From Hydrolagus affinis (taxonomy: Eukaryota): DNA of 64,000 nt. Shown in pieces: positions 5,945 through 61,723 of this stretch. Position 1 is the first letter of the stretch; each line of letters opens with the position of its first letter. The DNA lies in assembly GCA_012026655.1 (NCBI GenBank), contig JAAILG010000547.1, positions 1 to 64,000 of the forward strand, in the 5' to 3' direction. The translations under genes were made by a program, and so were the position numbers. The notes below the pieces were generated by a model that ran no database searches, was not told where the DNA came from, and was given only the letters and a program-made list of their open reading frames with translations.

Positions 5945-6092
5945 TGGAATACTGCTGTGCGCAATTGGCCACTGCGTTCTGCCCACCAACTGTACAATAA
6001 ATCAGTTTGCATTACATTCCGTGAAGCGCTTTCAGACGTCTCAATGGCGTGATAAGGCGCTATATCAAATGCAAGGCTTATTATTATTATTA
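5945..6092 (+). mobile_element. SINE2-1_CM-like SINE, 3' part
   Basis: GCTGTGCGCAATTGGC...GTGAAGCGCTTT...GGCGCTATATCAAATGCAAGG(ATT)n; homologous to the full copy at 60346-60645. Confidence 0.85.
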
Positions 6093-7670
6093 TCTTTGAC
6101 CAGCTGATAGTGTTCTGTGAGGGAGCAGTGAGGTGAGTATAGGTCGTACAGCAAAGCTGTTGACACTGCCAGCGACCATGCAATAAATTTAAAGGGAAAT
6201 AAATATTATCTGCTTTAAAATACTGCATGTCATGTTATTTTCCCCCAGAGGAACGCAGGTTATTTTAAGGCTTTTATCCCACAGTACTGTATTTCTTTAA
6301 TAGCTTTAGCTTACCACAGTGGAGGCTACCATTGCTGGAGGCTCTCGTCAATATTCAGCGCCAAAAGTACCATGCAGTTTGCTTGGCGTATTGATATATA
6401 CTTAGTATAATATTGCTCCACAGTGTGCAGAGTATAAAATAGGAGCTCACACTACAGAGAGAACCTTGCCTTTGTTCTTTCAAACCCTTAAAAGGATTGA
6501 GAGAGGCAGTTTGCAAAAAAAAATCTGCTGCCAACACCCACATGGAATGAATCCTGCTCAATGTACTCAAGTGTGACAATGTACAATACTGTATTGGGAA
6601 TGTGTGAGGCCTTAAATACATGCATACACGCACTTACACACCTATATATGCAACACACGCAATACAAAGCATCGGTCTAAGTCTTGTATACATCTAATTA
6701 TTCTTCTAAGCAGACACAGATGATTGTCTCAGACGTATTTTCAGTGCTGTGACAAAGGAGGCAGCAGCCTAACCTTTTAGTCTGTCCAGGCCAGAAAGCT
6801 GTTTGGGAAAGCAATCAACTTGAATACTTGCTATCAATACTTGATCCCTTCTGCTCCCTTTCCTTCCTCCACTTCAAGTCGACGACCAAAATGTGGTCAG
6901 GATTGTTTTAAGGAAAGTTCAATGCGTTTGTGAAATCCTGTTTTGCCTCTTTGAAGGTGAAAGGGCCCAAAGGGATTCTTTTAATGCACTGTTATGCATA
7001 TAGTGTATATTCCGTAGAGAGCGATTAAACTATTTAGCTCACAAAGATTAATATCATCGTCAAAATGTTCTCGTCTGTGCTCTCCAGTTCCTGCCTAGTG
7101 TTAGTAAAAAGTGAACTGAAAACAGTAAATAATTGACATGAAGATGAATGATCGAGGTGGTTTACAAGGCAATATATTTGCGAGAAAGAGGAAACATTAA
7201 TTGATGACTTATTGTTAATGTGTTTATAATGTAAACCTGCTTTTTGCTAAGATCAGCATTAGTGCCAATTAAAACGTGACTTATTCATAAATTGAATAAA
7301 AAGATAATTAAGATGTAATAATGAAGTCATTAGCGGATGTTACTCAGGTGGAACTGTGCTGTAATTAGTTGCTGATACATTAAGCTGGTTTTAGAATCCA
7401 GTTTATTCCCTGGTCAGATGGCAGTACAGTGACTGCTGGGGTCAGAATTCATTACTTGATCAAGTTGACCTTGTAGTTGACAAAAAAATGATAAAATGAT
7501 CCACCTTTTTTTCTTCCTGCCAGCGTTTAAAATGTCCGCAATCTGACACTCGTTTTACACTTTGAACAACAGCAAAACTGCAAAACCCTGCAAAGCTCTG
7601 GAAACAAAGTACGAGGAAGACCTGGTGAGTCTAAACTGTTAATACGTTCTAAACTCAGTCCCCACAGCCA

Positions 7671-25475: not shown

Positions 25476-25610
25476 TAATAATAATAATAATAATAATAAT
25501 AATCCTTGCATTTGATATAGCGCCTTATCACGTCTTTCAGACATCTCAAAGCACCACACAGAATATACTATGAAGTGAATTGACTATATAATTTGTGGGT
25601 GAATGGGTTA
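25476..25610 (-). mobile_element. SINE2-1_CM-like 3' fragment with (TAA)9 tail
   Basis: (TAA)n TCCTTGCATTTGATATAGCGCCTTATCACG...GTGAATTGAC. Confidence 0.9.
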
Positions 25611-31820: not shown

Positions 31821-33004
31821 GTCTACAATACCGACCAGTGGTATAATTCATTGGCACACACAGCAGTATGATATGGGAAACCCAGGGTTGAATCTCAGTT
31901 TCAGATGCTATTTGCATTTTGGATGATTCCTCTGGTATTAAGGTGCTAAACATGACAGTACATTGACCTCAATACTGAGTTGAAATGAACAGTCCAGCTG
32001 ACAGCGGGGGTGGGGTGGGGGGGGTGGGGGTGGACGAAAGCTAACAGCTTCAATTCGGTTCCACCACATCGCTGGGCAAATCAGCAACATTGGTGCAGCC
32101 GGAGAGACCCACACATGCTCAGTTCCTCCTCATTTCCTCTCACCACCACACACACAAAAAAAATAAAACTGCTGGGAAGGCAAGAAAATACATCAAAATA
32201 ATATCCAGAGATGTACAGAAGTGGATTGTGCAGTCGGCTGCAACGGTTCTGCATTCTGATACATTCAGGGAATGGTGGATGATTGGAAAGAAAACCCACG
32301 GATTTTTTTTTTCTCTCTCTCGCTCGCTCTCTCTGTTGCGGAGTTCTTTGTCACGCCATGTTTGTTGGGCCATTAATTTTTCGTGACAGTCAGGCTCTCT
32401 GATCAGACCCAAACCATAAAAACTGTAGCAGTGACATTGTGGAGCCAACACATGTAACCTGCAATGTCACAGTAGAAAAGTCTGACAAATGCAAGTATTG
32501 TATTTTCAACTGACAACTAAAAATATGATGAGTAAGGGGACTGAAATGAATATCTGTTCTGCCTGAGCCGAAGTTCAAGGATCTTTATGTGATCTGACAG
32601 TCTATTTATTTTAGGTGAAAAGCCTGATAAATCAGGAAATCATACATACCTGCTTTGGAGTCCTGAGGCTTTGGAATTTATTGTTCAAAGTAACTCGTAA
32701 ATCAAAAAAAAATCATTAACCTCTTGAATCTCTTTATCCTAGAGACAGATGACGATCTGGAAACACATTTCAAAATGAGAGTGTGGGCAGACATCACCAT
32801 TACATGTGTAATGCTGACGAACTTCAATATAAAGAATGTAATAACTTTTCTTGATTTGTATGTTTTTTTTTAGAAAGGATTGTTTTGAATTGTTGTTGAA
32901 AAAAAGATTGAAACAAAAAGCTGAATGCTGAACTTAAAAATAGACGGTACTGGAATGTATTTCTTTAATATACGTTTTTTTTCTCTCAGTCGTTAGTTTA
33001 AACC

Positions 33005-33210
33005 ATGAATGCTTTCCAATCTTTTAACATCATTAACACAATGGTTGAAGCAGAAAGCATCAATGAATCCAAAGAGAGTGTCTCTGCATACATGAAAGAG
33101 AGGGACTCGAGGGGTAAGGGATATGGTATTAGGAGAGAGTGAAGGTAAATGAGGAATGTGAACCATGGACTATATGGGCCAAAAGGCCTGTTTTGTGCTA
33201 CAACAATCTA
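33005..33210 (+). mobile_element. Old CR1 3' end
   Basis: GGTTGAAGCAGAAAGCATCAATGAATCCAA...GGACTATATGGGCCAAAAGGCCTGTTTTGTGCT, typical CR1 terminal stem-loop. Confidence 0.65.
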
Positions 33211-33754
33211 AGTAATACTCTCTAATTCTCTGTAACGTGGAAATAGTTTTCAAGATTGCTTCAAATTATTCTTGGCATCTTGAGTTGAGTAATTCCTGGG
33301 AAGCTTTAAACTGGTTTACGAATTGCAGAGGAAACACAAGCAACTCCTGACAAAGTACTGGCTGCAATTTCCGAATGCACGCTTTAGTGCGCAAATATGC
33401 ATTATGCTTTATTTTATTGCTGATTTGATGGAAGCCAACAAATAAGTAGCCTCAAATCAGCCATTACATACTCCCCCAGGATATTGTAGCCAGTCGCTCA
33501 TAACGTGGTAATGTTTTTTGGATTTTAATTTTTAATTATTTGTGATTATTATTACAGTTAGTTTATTGGCACAGAGATATCTTTGCAGCATTTACTGCCT
33601 GTTTGTTTAAATTTATCGTTACAGAATTAGGATGCAGTACTTGAAGCAAAAACAGCTAGTGATTTACCGTGATTTTATTTACGATAACGTATGGTCTAAT
33701 AATGTAGAATTCAATTGAGCTGATGCTTCCTGTTTCGGAGAATAACAATTTATT

Positions 33755-33870
33755 ATCCTTTGCCCACAAAATACGCAGGCAATCCACTTTACAGTATATT
33801 GTGTGCAGCACTTTGAGACATCACAGCAATGTGATAAGGCGTTATATCAAATGCAAAGATTATTATTATT
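33755..33870 (+). mobile_element. SINE2-1_CM-like 3' fragment
   Basis: CACTTTACAGTATATTGTGTG...GTGATAAGGCGTTATATCAAATGCAAAGATTATT. Confidence 0.8.
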
Positions 33871-34516
33871 AATTGAAATCTTCACACAAAAGCGGCTTTA
33901 TAAGTCATAATGTGTGGAGACCCATGGAATGCAGTGTGTATTAACTGCGGGCAACTGTTCATCAATGAATTAAAAAAATGCTACTTTCTGTGTGTTTTTA
34001 ATGTGCAGATTTCAATCAATCTCTGGTTTGAAAATCACAGTTTGATTTTGTAGACAAGTGGTTTGAGAACGCCTCTTGTGTCACACAGATTTTGGCTTCA
34101 CATCAGCTAGATTACGTTTCTGTAAAGTACATTAAGAAAGTTCCAATGTCTTCGTAAAAATTGCTGCTCTCCTACCCTTGCACAAATAAGTCACTGACTT
34201 GGAACACAATGAAGTTTTTCCTTGCACGACTGGTTCTGACACAATCATTTCCTTAAGTTGGTTCATCGTTTGCTTAGATTAATTTTGCCTCCAACTCACA
34301 ATCCGTATTTCATCTGAGAGCCGCAACAGAACATTGCTTCCACTGACCACAGATCAATAAACACAATGCCATCATGGGAGCCTTGAGTCAGTTATAAATT
34401 AAACCTGGAAGCATACTGATCTACTCAGCATCACCTATCTTCCTTCTGCATCAAATACCCAGCATTGTGTTTGATAAGAAATAGAAAAAGTAAAGTTTAA
34501 AAACTGATGGAGTGTT

Positions 34517-34672
34517 GAACTGCAGTTCTGTGCAGTTCTGACGAAGGGTCGTGGACTCGAAACGTTGACTCGTTTTCCTTTCTCCATGGATGCTGCCTGA
34601 CCTGCTGAGTTTCCCCAGCAATTTTCTGTTTCTGTTTCAGATTCCCAGCATCTGTAGTACTTTGTGTTTTGC
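34517..34672 (+). mobile_element. Non-autonomous Penelope-like element (pLTR fragment), copy 1
   Basis: CTGACGAAGGGTC...GAAACGTTGACTC...TCTCCATGGATGCTGCCTGACCTGCTGAG...CCAGCA...TTTCAGATTCCCAGCATCTG; homologues at 46.1 and 61.0 kb. Confidence 0.75.
34534..34570 (+). ncRNA. Minimal type-I hammerhead ribozyme motif
   Basis: Stem I AGTT/GACT; core CTGACGA(A); stem II GGGTC-GTG-GACTC; GAAAC; GTT cleavage triplet; stem III is the palindrome AACGTT. Confidence 0.7.
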
Positions 34673-36199
34673 ACACATTACATTTGATGGCTTTGCAAAA
34701 GGGCTTCGAGTCCCGCGCACATCAGTGGATTGTTTGATTTCCTGTGCTGCTATGCTTCCAAAACCAATGTTGACTCAGTGCAACATTCATACAGTTGGGT
34801 CAGCTTCTTTTTTGCCATGTGGAGATTGGAACAGATACATGTGGTTACAGCAAACGGCTTACTGCGCTGATAGCAAGCTGTTGACTGGGCTTCCAAATGT
34901 ATTTGTGTCACTTGAGGCTGCTGGACTGGTGGCGTGAGTTCCAACCGCTTAACTCAGAACAATGCGCTTAATTTTGCATTAGTGAAATTGACCAAAGATG
35001 AGATGGGAGCCTGCACTGCTATTTTTCACACTCATTACAAGCAATGGGGAGAGCTCATGCACATGCAAAACCTAAACTCGCCCTTTTACAGTGAATACTT
35101 TCAATTAAAAAAAATGATAATGCTCATTTTTACGCAAATCCTGATTAGCAATGTAAGTGAAACCTGAGTGTTAACCTTGGGGTTTGGCCATTCTCAACTG
35201 ATAACAATTGTGAGTCCATAAGAAAACGTTTGGCGCTTTAGAAAGCGCTTTCACAAAACCTCAAAGTTACCGTGATTGTGATAAATTCCCTACTGAGCAC
35301 TGCATATCCCCAAATGATTGTACGTAAGGCAATTTAACTGAAACCTCTGCTATCCATATAAACTGATAGACGTAGGAAATATAGGGTAGATGCACTCTAA
35401 GCAGCACTCTGCAAGGCAGGAGCCTTGGCATCACAAATCATGCTTCGAAGAAACTGAATACGTCACTGACTGGAATCAGAGAATATTTACGGCACTGAAG
35501 GAAGCCATTCAGCTCGTCGTGGAATCAGATCATAAAAACTTTAATTTGATTTTATGCCAGATTGCGGTTCGCACCAAGCAGTGAACCAGGAACGCGGGAA
35601 ATAGTAAACAAGACATTAAACTCTTTTGTCTTGAGTGCATTTCTTGTAAGGTCAAGAGTTAACAGGGCACTGTTCCTGCTTTTGTGCATTTCAATAGAAA
35701 CACATATATATACGTGTACGTGGAGGAGGAGAGTAATATGCTGTCAATTTCATTGTATGCAATACCTAGAGGCATATGGTTTGCCAAAAGGCCTCATCCA
35801 TTAAAAATGTGACAGTATATTAAGAAAACTGCATTTTGTGTTCCTAATGCAAATAGAAGATACAGAATGTGTAATAGCCTTTCACTTCAAATATTGTTAA
35901 GCTATGCAGTTGCTCGACAAGGATTATAAGACAGCTGCTGCAACCTAATGTAGAATTTTCTGGTTAAAACCCCTTTAAGATTCATATTGTGCAGGACTCA
36001 AACAAACGACTTATTTATGTTGGAAAACTGCCCAGTTGAAGCTGGAGCTACTGTTGTGCCATTCTGAGATTCTTCATGATTTGGTTCTGGAATTTAAGTC
36101 TTCTATCTCCATTCGAACTGGAATGTCAATTGTTGATGTGAAAAGGAATATGTATTTGTGGAGGTGTGGATATATAACTTAGATATCTTGTGCTCTGCT

Positions 36200-36524
36200 G
36201 TGATCTCCACTCGTTGAGCTCCAGCACGTCACCTAAAAAGCACTGCATTCTTGATGGTGCTGTCTTTTGGATGAGAGGCTAAGCCAAGGTTCAGTTTGCC
36301 TGTTCAGATGGATATTACAGATCCAGTGACATTATTCAAACAAAGAGAGTTTCAACCAACATCTAACCAACAATCCTCCCTACGCCTTATCCTTGTGGGA
36401 CATTGCTGGTGTAAATAACTTTGGGAGTTTGTTTATAAAACGTAAGCAATACCCTTGACAGTCATTACTTGTGAAGGGTTTTAAGATGTTTTGACATGGT
36501 AAGATGCTATAATACAACTTCTTT
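36200..36524 (+). mobile_element. Deu-domain SINE, diverged
   Basis: CACTGCATT...GGTGCTGTCTTTTGGATGAGAGGCTAAGCCAAGG...GCCTGTTCAGATGGATATTACAGATCC...CTTGTGGGACATTGCTG...TGTGAAGGGTTTTAAGATG. Confidence 0.7.
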
Positions 36525-38149
36525 ATAAAAAAAAATGATGTTCCTAATTAGGCAATTCTATCTCAGTAGTATCCCTCAGAGTCATACTTTAATTCATATT
36601 AACGACTTTTTTTTCCTGTAAGTTGCTGGTTAATAGAGCACATGCCAATCAGACATTTATTACTTATCAAGGGAAATCTGGGCCTAATATCATAAATATC
36701 ACTTCAATTGTGGTTCAATTTCTAATTGGCAACTAACTATCTGTCTCTAAACATTAAGAATGAAAACAAAATCTCTCTTTAACCCAAGCCAAATTTTCTT
36801 CTTTAAATGGAGCCTTATAAGGTCGAAAGCCTGAAGGGGCAGGTTTTGAAGAAAAAATCCATATAGAATAATTGAATAAAGGTAGGTAATGCTATACAAA
36901 ACAGCAGCAGTGTATGCTGCTTCTTAATATATTTAGAGGCATATTTTGTGTTATCATTTAAGATTTGGATTAGTTTCCTAGTCAACATTTTATTACACTT
37001 TTCTCCCCTGCCTCCCTTCCATCCACCCCCCACGCCCACACACACGTACACACTCCATAACTCCTTTCATCACTTTACACTCTTTTTTTTCCTGAAAGGA
37101 AACAAATGGATGAAGGGTGTGACTATTCTCAATGTCATTCCAGACGAGGCCTGACTCCTGTGCAACCATTTGTTATTACTTTATCCAAAGAGGTAATGCT
37201 TCACTGCGGCTCTGACTACCAGCCTGGTAGGGATCTGATGAGACTCACTCAACCAATGCCGGTGAGTGACAGATTACCCTTAGAAAGAAAACCTATCACT
37301 TTCTGTTTGACAGTTAGAGTCAAATACGTGAACGCTGAGCAGCCCTTAGATTAGAGAGACGTTCTGTACTCAGTGCTATTGTGATCGTCTCAGGATTTAG
37401 TTTTCTCCTTCAGAATATTTTACCTCTGACTTTCTAAGCATCTCTTCCCATTGGAACTTTTCCTTCTGCTGCAGGATTCTGACGAGTTTTATTATTGGAC
37501 TGAATGCAACTGTCTTCTTTGAGCGCTCGCTCATTTTGACTTGCAATTTATTAATCGGAAAGGAAACCTAAAAAAAACACTGTCTCCCTCAATACAAGAG
37601 AGCTTTCCGGTCTGAACACATAGCTTACACAAAATTTATTGCTGGTCATAGATTGGGTGAAGTTGCATTGGTGTGATTGACATGCTTGATATATTATCTG
37701 GGTGCCATGGGTTAGAGCAATATTAAAAGCGTTGGCAGGCTTTGAGTCTTCACTTGCGTTTTAAACCACCTGGAATCTCATTTGGTTTAACAATAAAGTC
37801 GAGCTGCTCAAGTTAAATCTGAACTCTTTAACAAACCTGAATCTTGAGCGGGTGATTTGCTTTTTATTTTTTCATAAGAAAATTTCTAATTAGAAAAATG
37901 CTCTGAGCAATCAAATTCCATTTCTTGATTTCTTTAGTAACTAAAACTTACCAGAGGTGCATACTTTTAGTGGCTAATATAGATAGAAGCTAATACTCTT
38001 GAAACCTTCTTCATGAACAATGCCGCAAGACATTTTTTAACAAAAAATTAACTAAACTTACCGCCTGGTGGCACAAACACACATGAGATGGAAATACTAA
38101 ACATAGCTTTAGTAAAATGTATCCTCAACGTAATTATCCTCAAATAATT

Positions 38150-46095: not shown

Positions 46096-46299
46096 CAAAA
46101 ACTGAAATCGCTGGGAACACCCCAAAATCTCGAAAACGACCCTTTGTTGAAGGTTCAGTTCTGACGAAGGGTCGTGGACCCAAAGCATTGACTCACTTTT
46201 CCTTTCTCCATAGATGCTGCCTGACCCGCTGAGTGTTCCCAGCGACTTCTGTTTTTTTTTCAGATTTCCAGCATTAATTTGCAGTATTTTGCATTTTTG
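46096..46299. mobile_element. Palindromic Penelope-like miniature element, copy 2, with TSD
   Basis: Minus arm (CAAAAACTGAAATCGCTGGGAACAC...ACGACCCTTTGTTGAA) head-to-head with plus arm (CAGTTCTGACGAAGGGTCGTGGACCC...GTGTTCCCAGCGACTTCTGTTTT); flanks AAGCATTTAGTGGAA (46081-46095) and AAACATTTAGTGAAA (46300-46314) match 13/15. Confidence 0.75.
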
Positions 46300-48178
46300 A
46301 AACATTTAGTGAAAGTTGGTTATGAGGTTCTCCATAAATGGAATTTGGTCACAATATAATACACAGTGACTGACATTTGTAACTTATTAAGCTTCCTATA
46401 GCCATGTATAAGATAGGCTGCATTGAAGTGTTTCGGAGAGGGAAAGCGAGGGCTCAGAATTATATGAATGTGCGAGAATTTAGATAAGGAATAGAACTGT
46501 AGGAGCAAAGCGAATACAGTAAAAGCTCCATAAACTCCCTGCATTTGCTTATACAATCTCATGCTGTACTCGTTTGAGAAATAGCTTGATTTTGTGTTGG
46601 GGGCAGGGGTGGAATGATTGACTGGAGGATCTGGAAGGATGAGTTCAAATACATCAAAGGATGCAACTTTTTCAGTTGAATCTCTGTGATTTTGTAATGT
46701 GCCTTTTTAAAATGCTGCAGAATCTAGCGTGCCACTAATCAAATCTAACTTAAATGAACCTTTAAGACTCAATACTGCATGGCAGAACTCGAAATGTAAT
46801 TAGAACAACTAATTTTGAGTTTCAGTGTGAGCCTTGCATTAGCTGGCGAATCTCTGAGTATAAACTGCAGTTCCACTGCTGGGTGCTGCAGGGGAGTTTT
46901 TGTTTCTTAAAAGCACCAGATTACTGCATCAAATTAGAAAAATAGCAATCTTACAATGAAAAGAAACAATTGCATAAGGAACAGGTTAAAGTAGGTCTGA
47001 CTGGCTGAATTATTTATTCTGATTACGTCGAATTTTGTAAAATTCAGAAGGACAGCCACATTGGAATAATGCACAGCACAATTTTGAGCTCCGTCAGTTA
47101 CTCAGAAAGCATATTACTCTGACACAGAACACTAATACAGCCAGACTTCAAGTCAGCATGACTAACCTGTTGACAGTTTCCATTTCACAAGGAAATGTCA
47201 GACAGGAAAATTTCATTGCATTTGATCCACTGGTTTTTTCTCTGAAGCTGTCGCATCTGACAGCTGTATATATAATTGTTTCCCAATTTTAAGGAATGAT
47301 TTTGATCTTTTATCATGCTCTTCTCAGTCCACACGATCAAATCATAATGCTGCAACTAATTTCAAGTTTTATTCCCGCAGAAAAGCAATGGTTGTCAGTA
47401 TTCATTAGAGTGAATGATAACACTAAACTGGGGAATGGAGTATTCTCCAGAGAGTATTATGATATTACAAAGCAAATTTACTGTGGGTATATTGAAGGCT
47501 ACTGCAAGTGCTGTGTACCAAACTGATAAGTTAATGTAATCCATTTCATATCAGTTTGCACAACTTGGGTCTCTCAAAATTGCATTTATCGCCTATTTAC
47601 AAATTGAGTAAATTCAGAATTAAAAACGTTTCTGTTTGCAAATTCACCCTAAAAGTGACGGTACTGCTGTATTCAAAATAGCGAGAGTCAAAGTTTTAAA
47701 TCAAACTGATCTTTTATACATAGAGTATGAAGCTTTCATGACAATAAGACACTCGGGTGAAAAATGTAGCATTTTTGACTGAAATAAAACAATTTACCGT
47801 AGTCCAGTTGAGAGGGAAGACTGGAATCCAACAAGCAATTATCAGAATTTGTTAGAGTAATAACAATGCAAGTCAGACATGTGTATACTAGCCACTGAGA
47901 TACAGATATCCCTCCCATCCATTCCCCTAGGGACCCTGCTTACCTCTCTTGCAAAGATAGTGTCCCCTTGTTGATCATTAAATGTGGTATATTGAACATC
48001 TATTATTCACCATGTAAATAAACCCACTGAAACACTTAACCATCTACAATAAATTCTGGGCCTTTTGTCAAATTTGCTCTAGTGAGAATTTACCATAATT
48101 CCCTCTAGAGTGACTCTGAAACTCATTTTGAAATGTGAACTGGGGCTAATTCGCTGTGGCTCTTAACAGTCAACATTA

Positions 48179-52856: not shown

Positions 52857-54082
52857 CAGTGTTTCTTAACAACCAGTCCGCGGACCGGTGCAGGTCCTCA
52901 GCAGCGTCCTTTGCCGGTCCGTGTGAAATTAGAGAAAAAATAAATTTACTGTATATTAACTTTGAAACAAAGAAAAACATGACAGAGTCGTAGATTTCTG
53001 AGCGGAGTGGATTTTCCAGTGATGTGCGGTGGGTACTCTACTTGACAGGGTAGGCACTTTACTTCTGCAGTTTAGTTTGGGAACAGAATGTGTGTAAAAT
53101 GTAAAGCACTCTCCCCCAACTCTACCGGAGAGATAGGGCCAACATTTTAAAGATGACCATGCTCACTTCATGTCAAAGATTTCTTCTAAAATGTAAAATT
53201 ACAGCCGGAAAAAAACACTTTTTTTATTGTTATCTGTGCTAAATAGGGTGAGTTTCAGATTATTCAACTTAATTAAACACCAGTGTCTGCACTTTCATTT
53301 AATTTCAAGTTTATATTCCACCTCAGACGGATCGCCCGCTTTCTTCCACCTCCGATGGATCGCCCGTCTCTGGCAATATCTCGCCCCAAAAGCCGCTGAA
53401 ACCCTGGTCCACGCCTTTGTCACCTCTCGCCTGGACTATTCAAATGCCCTCCTCGCCGGTCTCCCCTCCACCACAACCCATAAAATCCAACTAATTCAGA
53501 ACTCCGCCCACATTCTCACCCGCACCAAACTTCGCTCTCCCATAAACCCAGTTCTTGCCAGACTTCACTGGCTGCCTGTCCCAGAGAGAATCCATTTCAA
53601 GATCCTCGTTTTCAAATCTCTCCACTCCTCTGAACCCCTCTATCTGTCCGTCCTCCTCTCTCCTCAAATCAGCACCCGTTGCCTTCACTCCACCGGGTAT
53701 GGCCTCCTCCGTGTCCCCCGAATCCTCTACTTCACCCTCAGTGGCCGTGCCTTCAGCCACTACACCCCGAGGCTCTGGAACTCCCTTCCTCACTCCCTTC
53801 TACCTCCTCTCTTCCCAGTTTCAGGTCCCAACTAAAGACCTTTTTCTTCGACCCGTGCCTTTGGTCACCTTCCTCCCACTGCCTCTGGCTCGGTCCCGGG
53901 ATCTGTTATTGTGAAGCGCTCTGAGGGCGCTGGAGGGCGCTGTATAAATCAAAGTTGTTGTTATATGCACAAATCTAGCAGTAAAAAATAGACAAAAATG
54001 GCCAGGACCTTAAAAGCTTGTCCACCTCAGTTTAGGAAGATAGCCAGCCAGTCCCCTGCATCGAAAAGCCTGAGAAACACTG
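52857..54082. mobile_element. Non-autonomous hAT (Charlie/MER5-like) DNA transposon containing a nested L2
   Basis: TIRs CAGTGTTTCT(TAA) and (CTG)AGAAACACTG; subterminal GTCCGCGGACCGGTG/CCGGTCCG; 8-bp flanks GTGTATAA / GGGTATAG (6/8, central TA). Confidence 0.8.
53316..53962 (+). mobile_element. 5'-truncated L2 LINE (ORF2 C-terminus plus 3'UTR)
   Basis: ORF 53227-53835 contains AETLVHAFVTSRLDYSNALLAGLP...KIQLIQNSA...LHWLPVPERIHFKIL...RAFSHYTPRLWNSLP; (TTG)n tail. Confidence 0.95.
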
Positions 54083-61032: not shown

Positions 61033-61723
61033 CAAATCCCAAACGACTGCAGATGCTTGAAATCTGAAACACAAACAGAAATCGCTAGGAACACTCAGCA
61101 GGTCAGGCAGCATCTATGAAGGAAGGAAAGTGAGTCAATGTTTCGGGTCTATGATGAAGGGTTCTGATAAAGGATCGTGAACCCGAAACGTTGACTCACT
61201 TTCCAAACTTTGACCCTCCATTACCCCAGTCTTTGCTAGACTTCACTGGCTCCCTGTCACGGAGGGGATCGATTTCAAGATCCTCACCCTTGTTTTCAAA
61301 TCCCTCCGCTCCTCTGCACCCACCTACCTCTCTGACCTCCTCTCTCCTCAAACCAGCACCCGTTGCTTTTGCTCCACTGGGTCTGGCCTTCTCCTTGTCC
61401 CCCAAATCCTCTGCTCCACCATCGGTGGCTGTGCCTTCAGCCACTATTCCCCGAGGCTCTGGAATTCCCTTCCAAACTCCCTTCGCCTCTCTCCCTCTCT
61501 TCCCAGTTTCAGGTCTCAGTTGAAGACCTTTATCTTTGATCGTGCCTTTGGTCACCCTTCTACCCCGTACCCCTGGCTCGGTCCCGGTATCCACTATTGT
61601 AAAGCGTTCTGAGACGCCATCCGGCATGGAGGGCGCTATATGAATCAAAATTGTTGTTGTTGTTTCTCCATAGATGCTACCTGACCCTGCTGTGTGTTCC
61701 CAGCAGTTCTGTTTTTGTTTCAG
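61033..61723. mobile_element. Palindromic Penelope-like miniature element, copy 3, split by an L2
   Basis: Minus arm 61033-61155, plus arm 61159-61204 continuing at 61663-61723; flanking direct repeat TTTCAGTTATGAT at 61020-61032 and 61718-61730. Confidence 0.8.
61205..61662 (+). mobile_element. 5'-truncated L2 LINE nested in the Penelope-like element
   Basis: AGACTTCACTGGCTCCCTGTC...TTCAAGATCCTC...GGCTCTGGAATTCCCTTCC...GGGCGCTATATGAATCAAAA(TTG)4; same subfamily as 53316-53962. Confidence 0.93.

What the first reader, a model, noticed from the sequence alone, without database searches (positions are those of the whole stretch)
34534..34570. Intact minimal hammerhead ribozyme inside a chimaera/shark Penelope-like repeat
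Seen: AGTT-CTGACGA-A-GGGTC-gtg-GACTC-GAAAC-GTT-GACT. This reads as stem I (4 bp), the CUGANGA core with one extra A, a 5-bp stem II, GAAA, and a GUU triplet whose stem III has no loop but is the palindrome AACGTT. Established: Penelope-like retroelements and retrozymes carry minimal type-I hammerheads with palindromic stem III that cleave as dimers. Inference: this is the only one of the window's three copies with all core nucleotides, so a + strand transcript could self-cleave after 34566 if it pairs with a second copy in trans. That would make it a possible intronic RNA-cleavage element. The ORF track does not show it.
Basis: partly seen in the sequence, partly recalled or inferred. Interest (0 to 1): 0.7.

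Follow-up and report, generated by a model that had tools for sequence, protein, structure and literature searches.

The report
Penelope retrotransposon stub with hammerhead motif
This is a complete copy of a tiny self-cutting-RNA motif at the head of a 139-base leftover end of a very common Penelope-like jumping gene, a kind described in 2014; thousands of copies in this genome keep the same core, and this lone copy is predicted to be inactive.

Summary
The motif is there letter for letter and is beyond chance (1 hit in the window, 0 in 300 shuffles). It heads a 139-nt stub (34533-34671) of a Penelope-like element whose long copies carry RT, a CX5CxxC linker and GIY-YIG (Neptune/Nematis type). 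It matches the published PLE minimal hammerhead, extra A included (Cervera 2014). Being intact is not special: 3,879 core matches genome-wide (control 12), 12 of 20 long copies intact, core decaying like neighbouring DNA. Related PLEs from metagenome contigs keep the core with changed but pairing stems. The local-cleavage idea is weak. No host gene was found. In a dimer, this core would cut the partner; cutting at 34566 needs a partner's intact core, and none lies in cis. Flanking hairpins are predicted to bury the core. One side clue: 18 of 39 sampled arms start within 9 nt of the motif's first base, with no excess at the cut site, suggesting copying from uncut RNA that starts there. The scan has noted such stubs and this pile-up before, on other DNA.

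The parts
34533..34671 (+). 5'-truncated pLTR stub of a Penelope-like element (139 nt); differs from the majority of 20 long copies by 7 substitutions and 1 gap
34534..34537 (+). stem I, 5' strand (AGTT)
   Evidence: sequence
34538..34544 (+). core C3 U4 G5 A6 C7 G8 A9
   Evidence: sequence
34545..34545 (+). extra A between A9 and G10.1, a published trait of PLE minimal hammerheads
   Evidence: PMC4209133; A in 44 of 44 arms of the two samples not picked on the motif
34546..34558 (+). stem II GGGTC/GACTC with loop GTG; 34557 is T here (G-U) where most copies have C (G-C)
34559..34566 (+). G12 A13 A14, loopless palindromic stem III ACGT (34562-34565) and H17 = U (34566); predicted cut between 34566 and 34567
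   Evidence: sequence; GUU listed as an active NUH site in PMC3138052
34567..34570 (+). stem I, 3' strand (GACT)
   Evidence: sequence
34639..34671 (+). optional ~33-nt PLE 'tail' (approximate start); family arms end either near 34630-34645 or near 34671
   Evidence: PMC8557442; PMC11167929
34513..34532 (+). 5'-junction micro-inversion/duplication (GAACTG CAGTTCTG TG); predicted hairpin 34513-34524 with 34531-34543 (-13.7 kcal/mol) that buries stem I and C3-G8
   Evidence: 8 more such letters in run X1
34559..34576 (+). predicted competing hairpin GAAACG/CGTTTT (-3.5 kcal/mol) that buries GAAA
46156..46306 (+). second stub; GAAA box and palindrome broken
61033..61154 (-). tailed arm of a head-to-head pair; lacks CUGANGA
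61161..61723 (+). tail-less arm of the pair (61161-61204 and 61656-61723, split by a ~450-nt insertion); G8 reads A, substrate half ACGTT-GACT intact

Best explanation
The motif is the minimal hammerhead of a Penelope-like retrotransposon, carried here in a 139-nt end-fragment that likely arose when reverse transcription started at the element's tail site and ran to the 5' end of an uncut RNA, and this lone copy is predicted to be inactive. Shown: in long copies the same 139 nt lie 285 nt after the stop of an RT + GIY-YIG frame; in partial tandems the motif begins 172 nt before the next ATG (MPTLKK). Inferred for the parent element: two motifs pair cross-wise through ACGU and stem I, each core cutting the other's GUU, slowly and probably only with help from the element's protein. 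Inferred for this copy: it has no intact partner in cis, its flanks misfold it, and it is intact because the family is young, not because it is selected.
For: Parent element: RVT_1 above cut-off in L087; GIY-YIG weak matches, E 0.0025 and 0.051, below cut-off; 311 RT relatives at E<=1e-20, and the 3 scanned all carry RT + GIY-YIG; distances. Abundance: 3,879 core matches vs 12 control; 1,057 vs 0 for a tighter pattern. Neutral decay in 20 long copies: core non-CpG 3 of 176 vs other non-CpG 99 of 3,251 (p=0.49), core CpG 4 of 39 vs other CpG 13 of 119, 7 subfamily columns left out; 4 of 100 listed copies (of 158) changed at one stem II base keep a pair there. PLE anatomy: 19 of 39 arms end at unit 97-112 and 20 of 39 at 130-138; 11 of 11 inverted pairs have one tailed and one tail-less arm. 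Function in the lineage: 6 of 80 related loci carry the motif 99-139 nt after the protein match on the same strand, with both-side changes in 5 of 8 pairs. Inactivity here: stem I probability 0.0 in three flanked folds; GAA unpaired 0.10-0.11; double hammerhead -8.5 kcal/mol vs -7.8 per monomer. Literature: no monomer cleavage and low dimer cleavage for a Schistosoma min-HHR (PMC4209133); an Anolis PLE hammerhead cut only with protein and uncut RNA was the main insertion template (PMC11167929).
Against: No cleavage assay was run; folding ignores tertiary contacts, Mg2+ and proteins, and copies in their native element context also fold poorly (mean stem I probability 0.11 in 16 copies), so the fold does not sharply separate this copy from the rest. 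Core non-CpG changes are nominally fewer than background (1.7% vs 3.0%), and the sample is too small to exclude mild selection. The orthologous copy in run X1 keeps 34534-34562 unchanged, as expected at ~1.4% flank divergence either way. The covariation set was picked by a descriptor that demands pairing and holds only about 4 independent families. A host gene with short exons could have been missed.
Confidence: 0.85

Rival explanations
1. One reading: this copy cuts a + strand host transcript after 34566 by pairing in trans with RNA from another intact copy.
For: All core letters and both stems are present; thousands of core-intact copies could supply partners; family sequence is abundant in RNA runs X2-X4 in both orientations.
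Against: No host gene found; only two 4-bp intermolecular helices per core, and the double form is predicted to be less stable than two monomers; flanks bury stem I and GAAA; min-HHRs cleave poorly even as tandems (PMC4209133).
Confidence: 0.05
2. This copy acts as the enzyme half on another copy: on a + strand transcript spanning both, its core would cut the intact ACGUU-GACU half of the 61161 arm, 26.6 kb downstream.
For: All 4 stem I pairs and all 4 stem III pairs between this core and the 61161 arm are complementary.
Against: Needs a >26-kb + strand transcript that was not shown; the 61161 arm would pair with its own inverted neighbour at 61033-61154; mixed double form -6.1 kcal/mol.
Confidence: 0.03
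3. The stub is a member of a non-autonomous retrozyme/SINE-like family that spreads as its own small RNA rather than by truncation of the long element.
For: 25 of 39 arms start at unit 1-22, which gives many near-uniform ~139-nt units; a 2026 preprint derives animal retrozymes from PLE pLTRs (10.64898/2026.07.22.740005).
Against: No head-to-tail array here; 8 of 39 arms run on into the long element's 3' region; ends do not sit at the cut site; the stub is 94% identical to the end of the RT-bearing L007.
Confidence: 0.07

Closest known systems
Minimal type-I hammerheads (min-HHR) in pLTRs of metazoan Penelope-like elements (Cervera and de la Pena 2014, PMC4209133)
   Same: CUGANGA and GAAA cores, a nucleotide between 9 and 10.1, G10.1-C11.1, palindromic 15.2-16.2, short stem I, position in the pLTR, mostly solo truncated copies in the thousands.
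   Different: Host group: the Results and Discussion I read name fishes, coelacanth, frog and reptiles but not cartilaginous fish; five shark/chimaera terms found nothing in 2 searched supplements, and supplement 1, which may hold the species lists, could not be searched. Stem II is 5 bp with a 3-nt loop; the triplet is GUU.
Neptune/Nematis-type EN+ Penelope-like elements (Craig et al. 2021, PMC8557442)
   Same: RT then C-terminal GIY-YIG, CX5CxxC linker (CQRRRCNTC), DKG motif, partial tandems, inverted 5'-truncated arms, optional 30-40-nt tail.
   Different: No tree was built, so Neptune was not separated from Nematis; no intact full-length ORF was seen among the copies fetched.
PAc, the Poseidon PLE of Anolis (Frangieh et al. 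2024, PMC11167929)
   Same: Two 3' ends about 33 nt apart; copies made from uncut RNA; hammerhead near the start of the ORF.
   Different: In PAc the start codon lies inside the hammerhead; here the ATG is 172 nt after the motif's first base.
Non-LTR retrozymes (Li et al. 2026 preprint, 10.64898/2026.07.22.740005)
   Same: Short non-coding unit with a type-I hammerhead, derived from a pLTR.
   Different: Retrozymes are defined by tandem units each with a hammerhead; this is a solo stub.

Membership tests
PLE minimal hammerhead (min-HHR) | CUGANGA and GAAA boxes with a UH site | tested here: met
PLE minimal hammerhead (min-HHR) | nucleotide between 9 and 10.1, and G10.1-C11.1 pair | tested here: met
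   A34545; G34546-C34558
PLE minimal hammerhead (min-HHR) | palindromic, loopless or tiny stem III | tested here: met
   ACGT 34562-34565
PLE minimal hammerhead (min-HHR) | lies in the pLTR of an RT + GIY-YIG element | tested here: met
PLE minimal hammerhead (min-HHR) | covariation of stems I and II between families | tested here: met
   5 of 8 pairs with both-side changes in 9 distinct rows, about 4 independent families, picked by a pairing descriptor
PLE minimal hammerhead (min-HHR) | covariation among copies within the genome | tested here: not met
   4 of 100 listed copies changed at stem II pair 2 stay paired; expected for dead copies of one young family
PLE minimal hammerhead (min-HHR) | self-cleavage as a dimer | not testable with these tools
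   needs an in vitro assay
Rfam hammerhead families | match to a curated covariance model | tested here: not met
   no hammerhead family among hits at E<=5 or E<=10
Neptune/Nematis-type EN+ PLE | RT followed by C-terminal GIY-YIG | tested here: met
   RVT_1 above cut-off; GIY-YIG E 0.0025-0.051, below cut-off, above it in 3 of 3 relatives scanned
Neptune/Nematis-type EN+ PLE | CX2-5CxxC linker between RT and EN | tested here: met
   CQRRRCNTC in L085, L087, L088, L089
Neptune/Nematis-type EN+ PLE | inverted 5'-truncated arms and optional tail | tested here: met
   11 of 11 inverted pairs with one tailed arm
Neptune clade proper | placement in an RT tree with reference elements | not tested
   no reference set was fetched
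Non-LTR retrozyme | head-to-tail tandem units each with a hammerhead | tested here: not met
   solo stub; nearest same-strand copy 11.6 kb away and broken
Domesticated intronic hammerhead (RECK type) | inside a host intron and conserved across species | tested here: inconclusive
   no host gene found; only one close DNA run compared

The most novel reading that the evidence does not exclude
The element's RNA starts at the first base of the hammerhead (A34534, in an Initiator-like CCAGTTC; consensus recalled, not from a call), so the thousands of stubs are run-off cDNAs from the two tail initiation sites to the 5' end of uncut RNA, and the ribozyme is a switch at the very head of the transcript that removes the capped first 33 nt and takes the RNA out of the pool that is copied. 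Basis: 18 of 39 arms start at unit -1 to 7, and there is no excess at the cut site. A reverse-transcriptase stop at the folded motif explains the pile-up equally well.
Probability: 0.3. Interest if true: 0.45.

Novelty: new member of a known kind. Interest (0 to 1): 0.15.

Why it matters
As a single locus it matters little: it is one of about 3,900 core-bearing copies of a known motif class. It adds a cartilaginous-fish-like genome to the hosts of PLE minimal hammerheads; my three shark/chimaera searches found no paper describing them there, but the library lacks most subscription papers and one supplement. The role of PLE hammerheads is still called unclear (PMC8557442). The sharp 5' start of stubs at the motif's first bases, with no excess at the cut site, gives a testable handle on where PLE RNA starts and on whether cut RNA is ever copied.

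Tried and rejected
Rfam scans gave no hammerhead match. Host gene: Pfam scans of 267 window frames of 60 aa or more and 132 frames of 55 aa or more from contig bases 64001-94000 gave no match above a curated cut-off; a crude splice-site scan gave 8 candidates, which were inspected but not scanned; 'intronic' is neither shown nor excluded. Expression: no RNA holder listed for 32000-37000. Three raw RNA runs of one sample (organism B, 27-30% of each read) gave family-level depth in the hundreds, depth 0 at 34405-34509 and 34699-34900, and no pile-up of ends; organism B was not shown to be the window's species and these libraries cannot show cut ends, so this is inconclusive. Cleavage footprint (lead from e1-9207248): copies starting at the cut site, 11 truncated of 17 distinct, against 15 of 26 two bases later and 12 of 25 two bases earlier (truncation called by a crude motif rule): no excess. 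An early hint that tandem copies begin only after the cut site (4 copies) failed when 30 junctions were examined: 7 of 30 begin at unit 12 or earlier. Apparent compensatory stem II variants (11 matches, control 2) failed against the single-change control. No clear target-site duplication was seen by eye. Lunse et al. (PMC5785218) is not held; I saw only its title and the summary in PMC6765202. One search crashed partway; its last lines were rerun. Four of 12 descriptor hits (L167, L191, L196, L241) were left out of alignment A2 because their stem lengths or core differ.

Full report
Observation. A descriptor asking for both stems, both core boxes and a palindromic stem III finds this one site in the window and none in 300 dinucleotide shuffles. 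No Rfam hammerhead model reports it. The other two insertion sites in the window have broken or missing cores: 46156-46306, and a head-to-head pair at 61033-61723 split by a younger insertion.

What it belongs to. The motif opens a 139-nt unit, 34533-34671, that recurs genome-wide at 89-96% identity among the 40 candidates scored. Following copies upstream leads to a frame with RT and GIY-YIG motifs. In L087 the RT piece passes the RVT_1 cut-off; the GIY-YIG matches are weak (E 0.0025 in L007, 0.051 in L087) but pass in 3 of 3 long relatives scanned. The best named relatives are bamboo-shark proteins at 62-63%; I did not identify the host. A CX5CxxC linker points to the Neptune/Nematis type as defined in PMC8557442 (passages read). 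The core starts 285 nt after the stop codon in L007 and L087; in four partial tandems the motif begins 172 nt before the position of the next start codon, whose MPTLKK start resembles the MPTLR start of relative P0004.

The family has PLE anatomy. From the first 30 of 1,901 exact matches to a 38-mer downstream of the motif I obtained 39 distinct arms. Of these, 19 end at unit 97-112 and 20 at 130-138, and all 11 inverted pairs have one tailed and one tail-less arm. This fits the optional 30-40-nt tail (PMC8557442) and the two reverse-transcription start sites shown for the Anolis element (PMC11167929, first two of four parts read). The window's copy carries the tail.

Is the intact core special? 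No. A core pattern has 3,879 matches against 12 for its reversed control (it allows the CpG change at 15.2); a tighter one has 1,057 against 0. Among 20 long copies picked on 900 nt of mostly other sequence, 12 keep all 11 core letters. Non-CpG core positions differ in 3 of 176 cells against 99 of 3,251 elsewhere (p=0.49), CpG positions in 4 of 39 against 13 of 119; 7 subfamily columns were left out. Of 100 listed copies (of 158) changed at one stem II base, 4 keep a pair. So copies decay like neutral DNA, and within-genome covariation is absent. Between families the picture differs: among 80 metagenome loci encoding relatives, the descriptor hits 12 times, 9 on the coding strand, and 6 hits lie 99-139 nt after the protein match. 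Aligning 8 of the 12 with two copies from this genome gives an invariant core and both-side changes in 5 of 8 pairs, with 93% of cells paired against 13-49% for slid controls. That set was selected for pairing and holds about four independent families, so it supports function in the lineage only modestly; the published case is stronger (PMC4209133, first two of four parts read).

How it works. Shown: the anatomy above. Inferred from topology (the dimer model is that of PMC4209133, Fig. 1 legend): with no loop, A15.1-C15.2 of one molecule must pair with G16.2-U16.1 of another, so H17 and the 3' strand of stem I in each active site come from the partner. An intact core therefore cuts the partner, and cutting at 34566 needs a partner with an intact core. 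None lies on the + strand of the contig: 46157 has AAAG for GAAA, 61161 has A for G8, and the copy at 67611-67823 is on the - strand and broken. The only complete site in cis would be this core with the 61161 substrate half, 26.6 kb away. Nearest-neighbour energies disfavour the double form (-8.5 kcal/mol against -7.8 for each monomer). With native flanks, a junction hairpin (34513-34543, -13.7 kcal/mol) buries stem I and most of CUGACG, and GAAACG pairs with CGUUUU just downstream. The caveat is that copies in element context also fold poorly by this measure (mean stem I probability 0.11, n=16). Published assays fit a weak, assisted ribozyme: none as monomer and low as dimer; cleavage only with the element's protein, and not needed for insertion. 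GUU is listed as an active NUH site (PMC3138052, passages).

Host context. No Pfam match above cut-off in 399 frames from contig bases 1-94000, so 'intronic' is unsupported, though short exons could be missed. Run X1, which reads like DNA of a close relative (flat depth near 50, ~1.4% flank differences), holds the same insertion. The RNA runs are inconclusive (see Tried and rejected).

A side clue. Of 39 arms, 18 start at unit -1 to 7, 25 at 1-22, 8 further upstream and 1 at 34-37 (alignment ends can shift by a few bases, and the sample excludes copies cut 3' of unit 50). A genome-wide test for starts exactly at the cut site found no excess: 11 truncated of 17 distinct, against 15 of 26 and 12 of 25 at neighbouring positions. 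The stubs were thus likely copied from uncut RNA and stop where the motif begins, at CCAGTTC, which fits the Initiator consensus as I recall it. That suggests a transcription start at the first base of stem I, or a reverse-transcriptase stop. I saw the pile-up before consulting earlier notes; several notes on other DNA report the same, and one reports a cut-site footprint that I did not find in this family. Those notes are leads, not support. A literature search for this point listed two papers; of these I read passages of PMC8557442 under other terms and only the listing of PMC11722881, so novelty in print is not established.

Comparison and verdict. It works like, and by every sequence feature tested is a member of, the PLE minimal hammerheads of Cervera and de la Pena 2014; cleavage could not be tested. 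It is not a retrozyme by the tandem criterion (preprint 10.64898/2026.07.22.740005, first part and passages read; its supplements are closed) and not shown to be a domesticated intronic ribozyme (PMC6155905, passages). Searches for hammerheads with Penelope and shark, or with chimaera, found no paper on this host group; supplement 1 of PMC4209133 and Lunse et al. were not seen and may cover it. New member of a known kind; interest 0.15.

Noticed in passing
window 4776-60508, e.g. 25488-25603, 33763-33875, 6013-6093: A different, more abundant short repeat (about 80-130 nt, with an ATT/TAA-rich end) occurs many times in both orientations (families D2-D4, D6, D8, D11); it looks like a SINE or LINE 3' end. 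Not identified.
   Followed up: no
window 53197-53835 and 61205-61655: Two related fragments (85% over 197 nt) that translate like the C-terminal end of a LINE reverse transcriptase (likeness recalled, no Pfam match); the second splits the + arm of the PLE pair at 61161, so it is the younger insertion.
   Followed up: partly
L081:3611-3823 (contig 67611-67823, - strand): A further copy of the family beyond the window, with G8 and G16.2 changed to A.
   Followed up: yes
L131-L139, L145, L148-L150: 13 of 30 tail-to-ORF junctions belong to a separate repeated block in which another sequence replaces the hammerhead region upstream of unit ~97; possibly a satellite or segmental duplication that captured the element's 5' end.
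   Followed up: no
L122, L124, L128 (just before the ATG): The element's ATG follows CCTCTCTTCTAG-GA, which looks like a splice acceptor; a 5'-UTR intron is known in Drosophila Penelope (PMC4209133). No donor was identified.
   Followed up: no
G000, listing: About a quarter of the listed matches read GTGTC-RTC-GACCC, mostly on short contigs: an amplified variant with a mismatch in stem II.
   Followed up: no
L191:1766 (-), L167:2030 (-), L241:4478 (+): Metagenome loci near related PLE proteins hold other hammerhead variants: one with U3-A8 in place of C3-G8, two with a longer palindromic stem III.
   Followed up: no
window 34519: Run X1 has 8 extra letters (CTGCAGTT) at the 5' junction of the same insertion, so the junction duplication differs in length between the two genomes.
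   Followed up: partly
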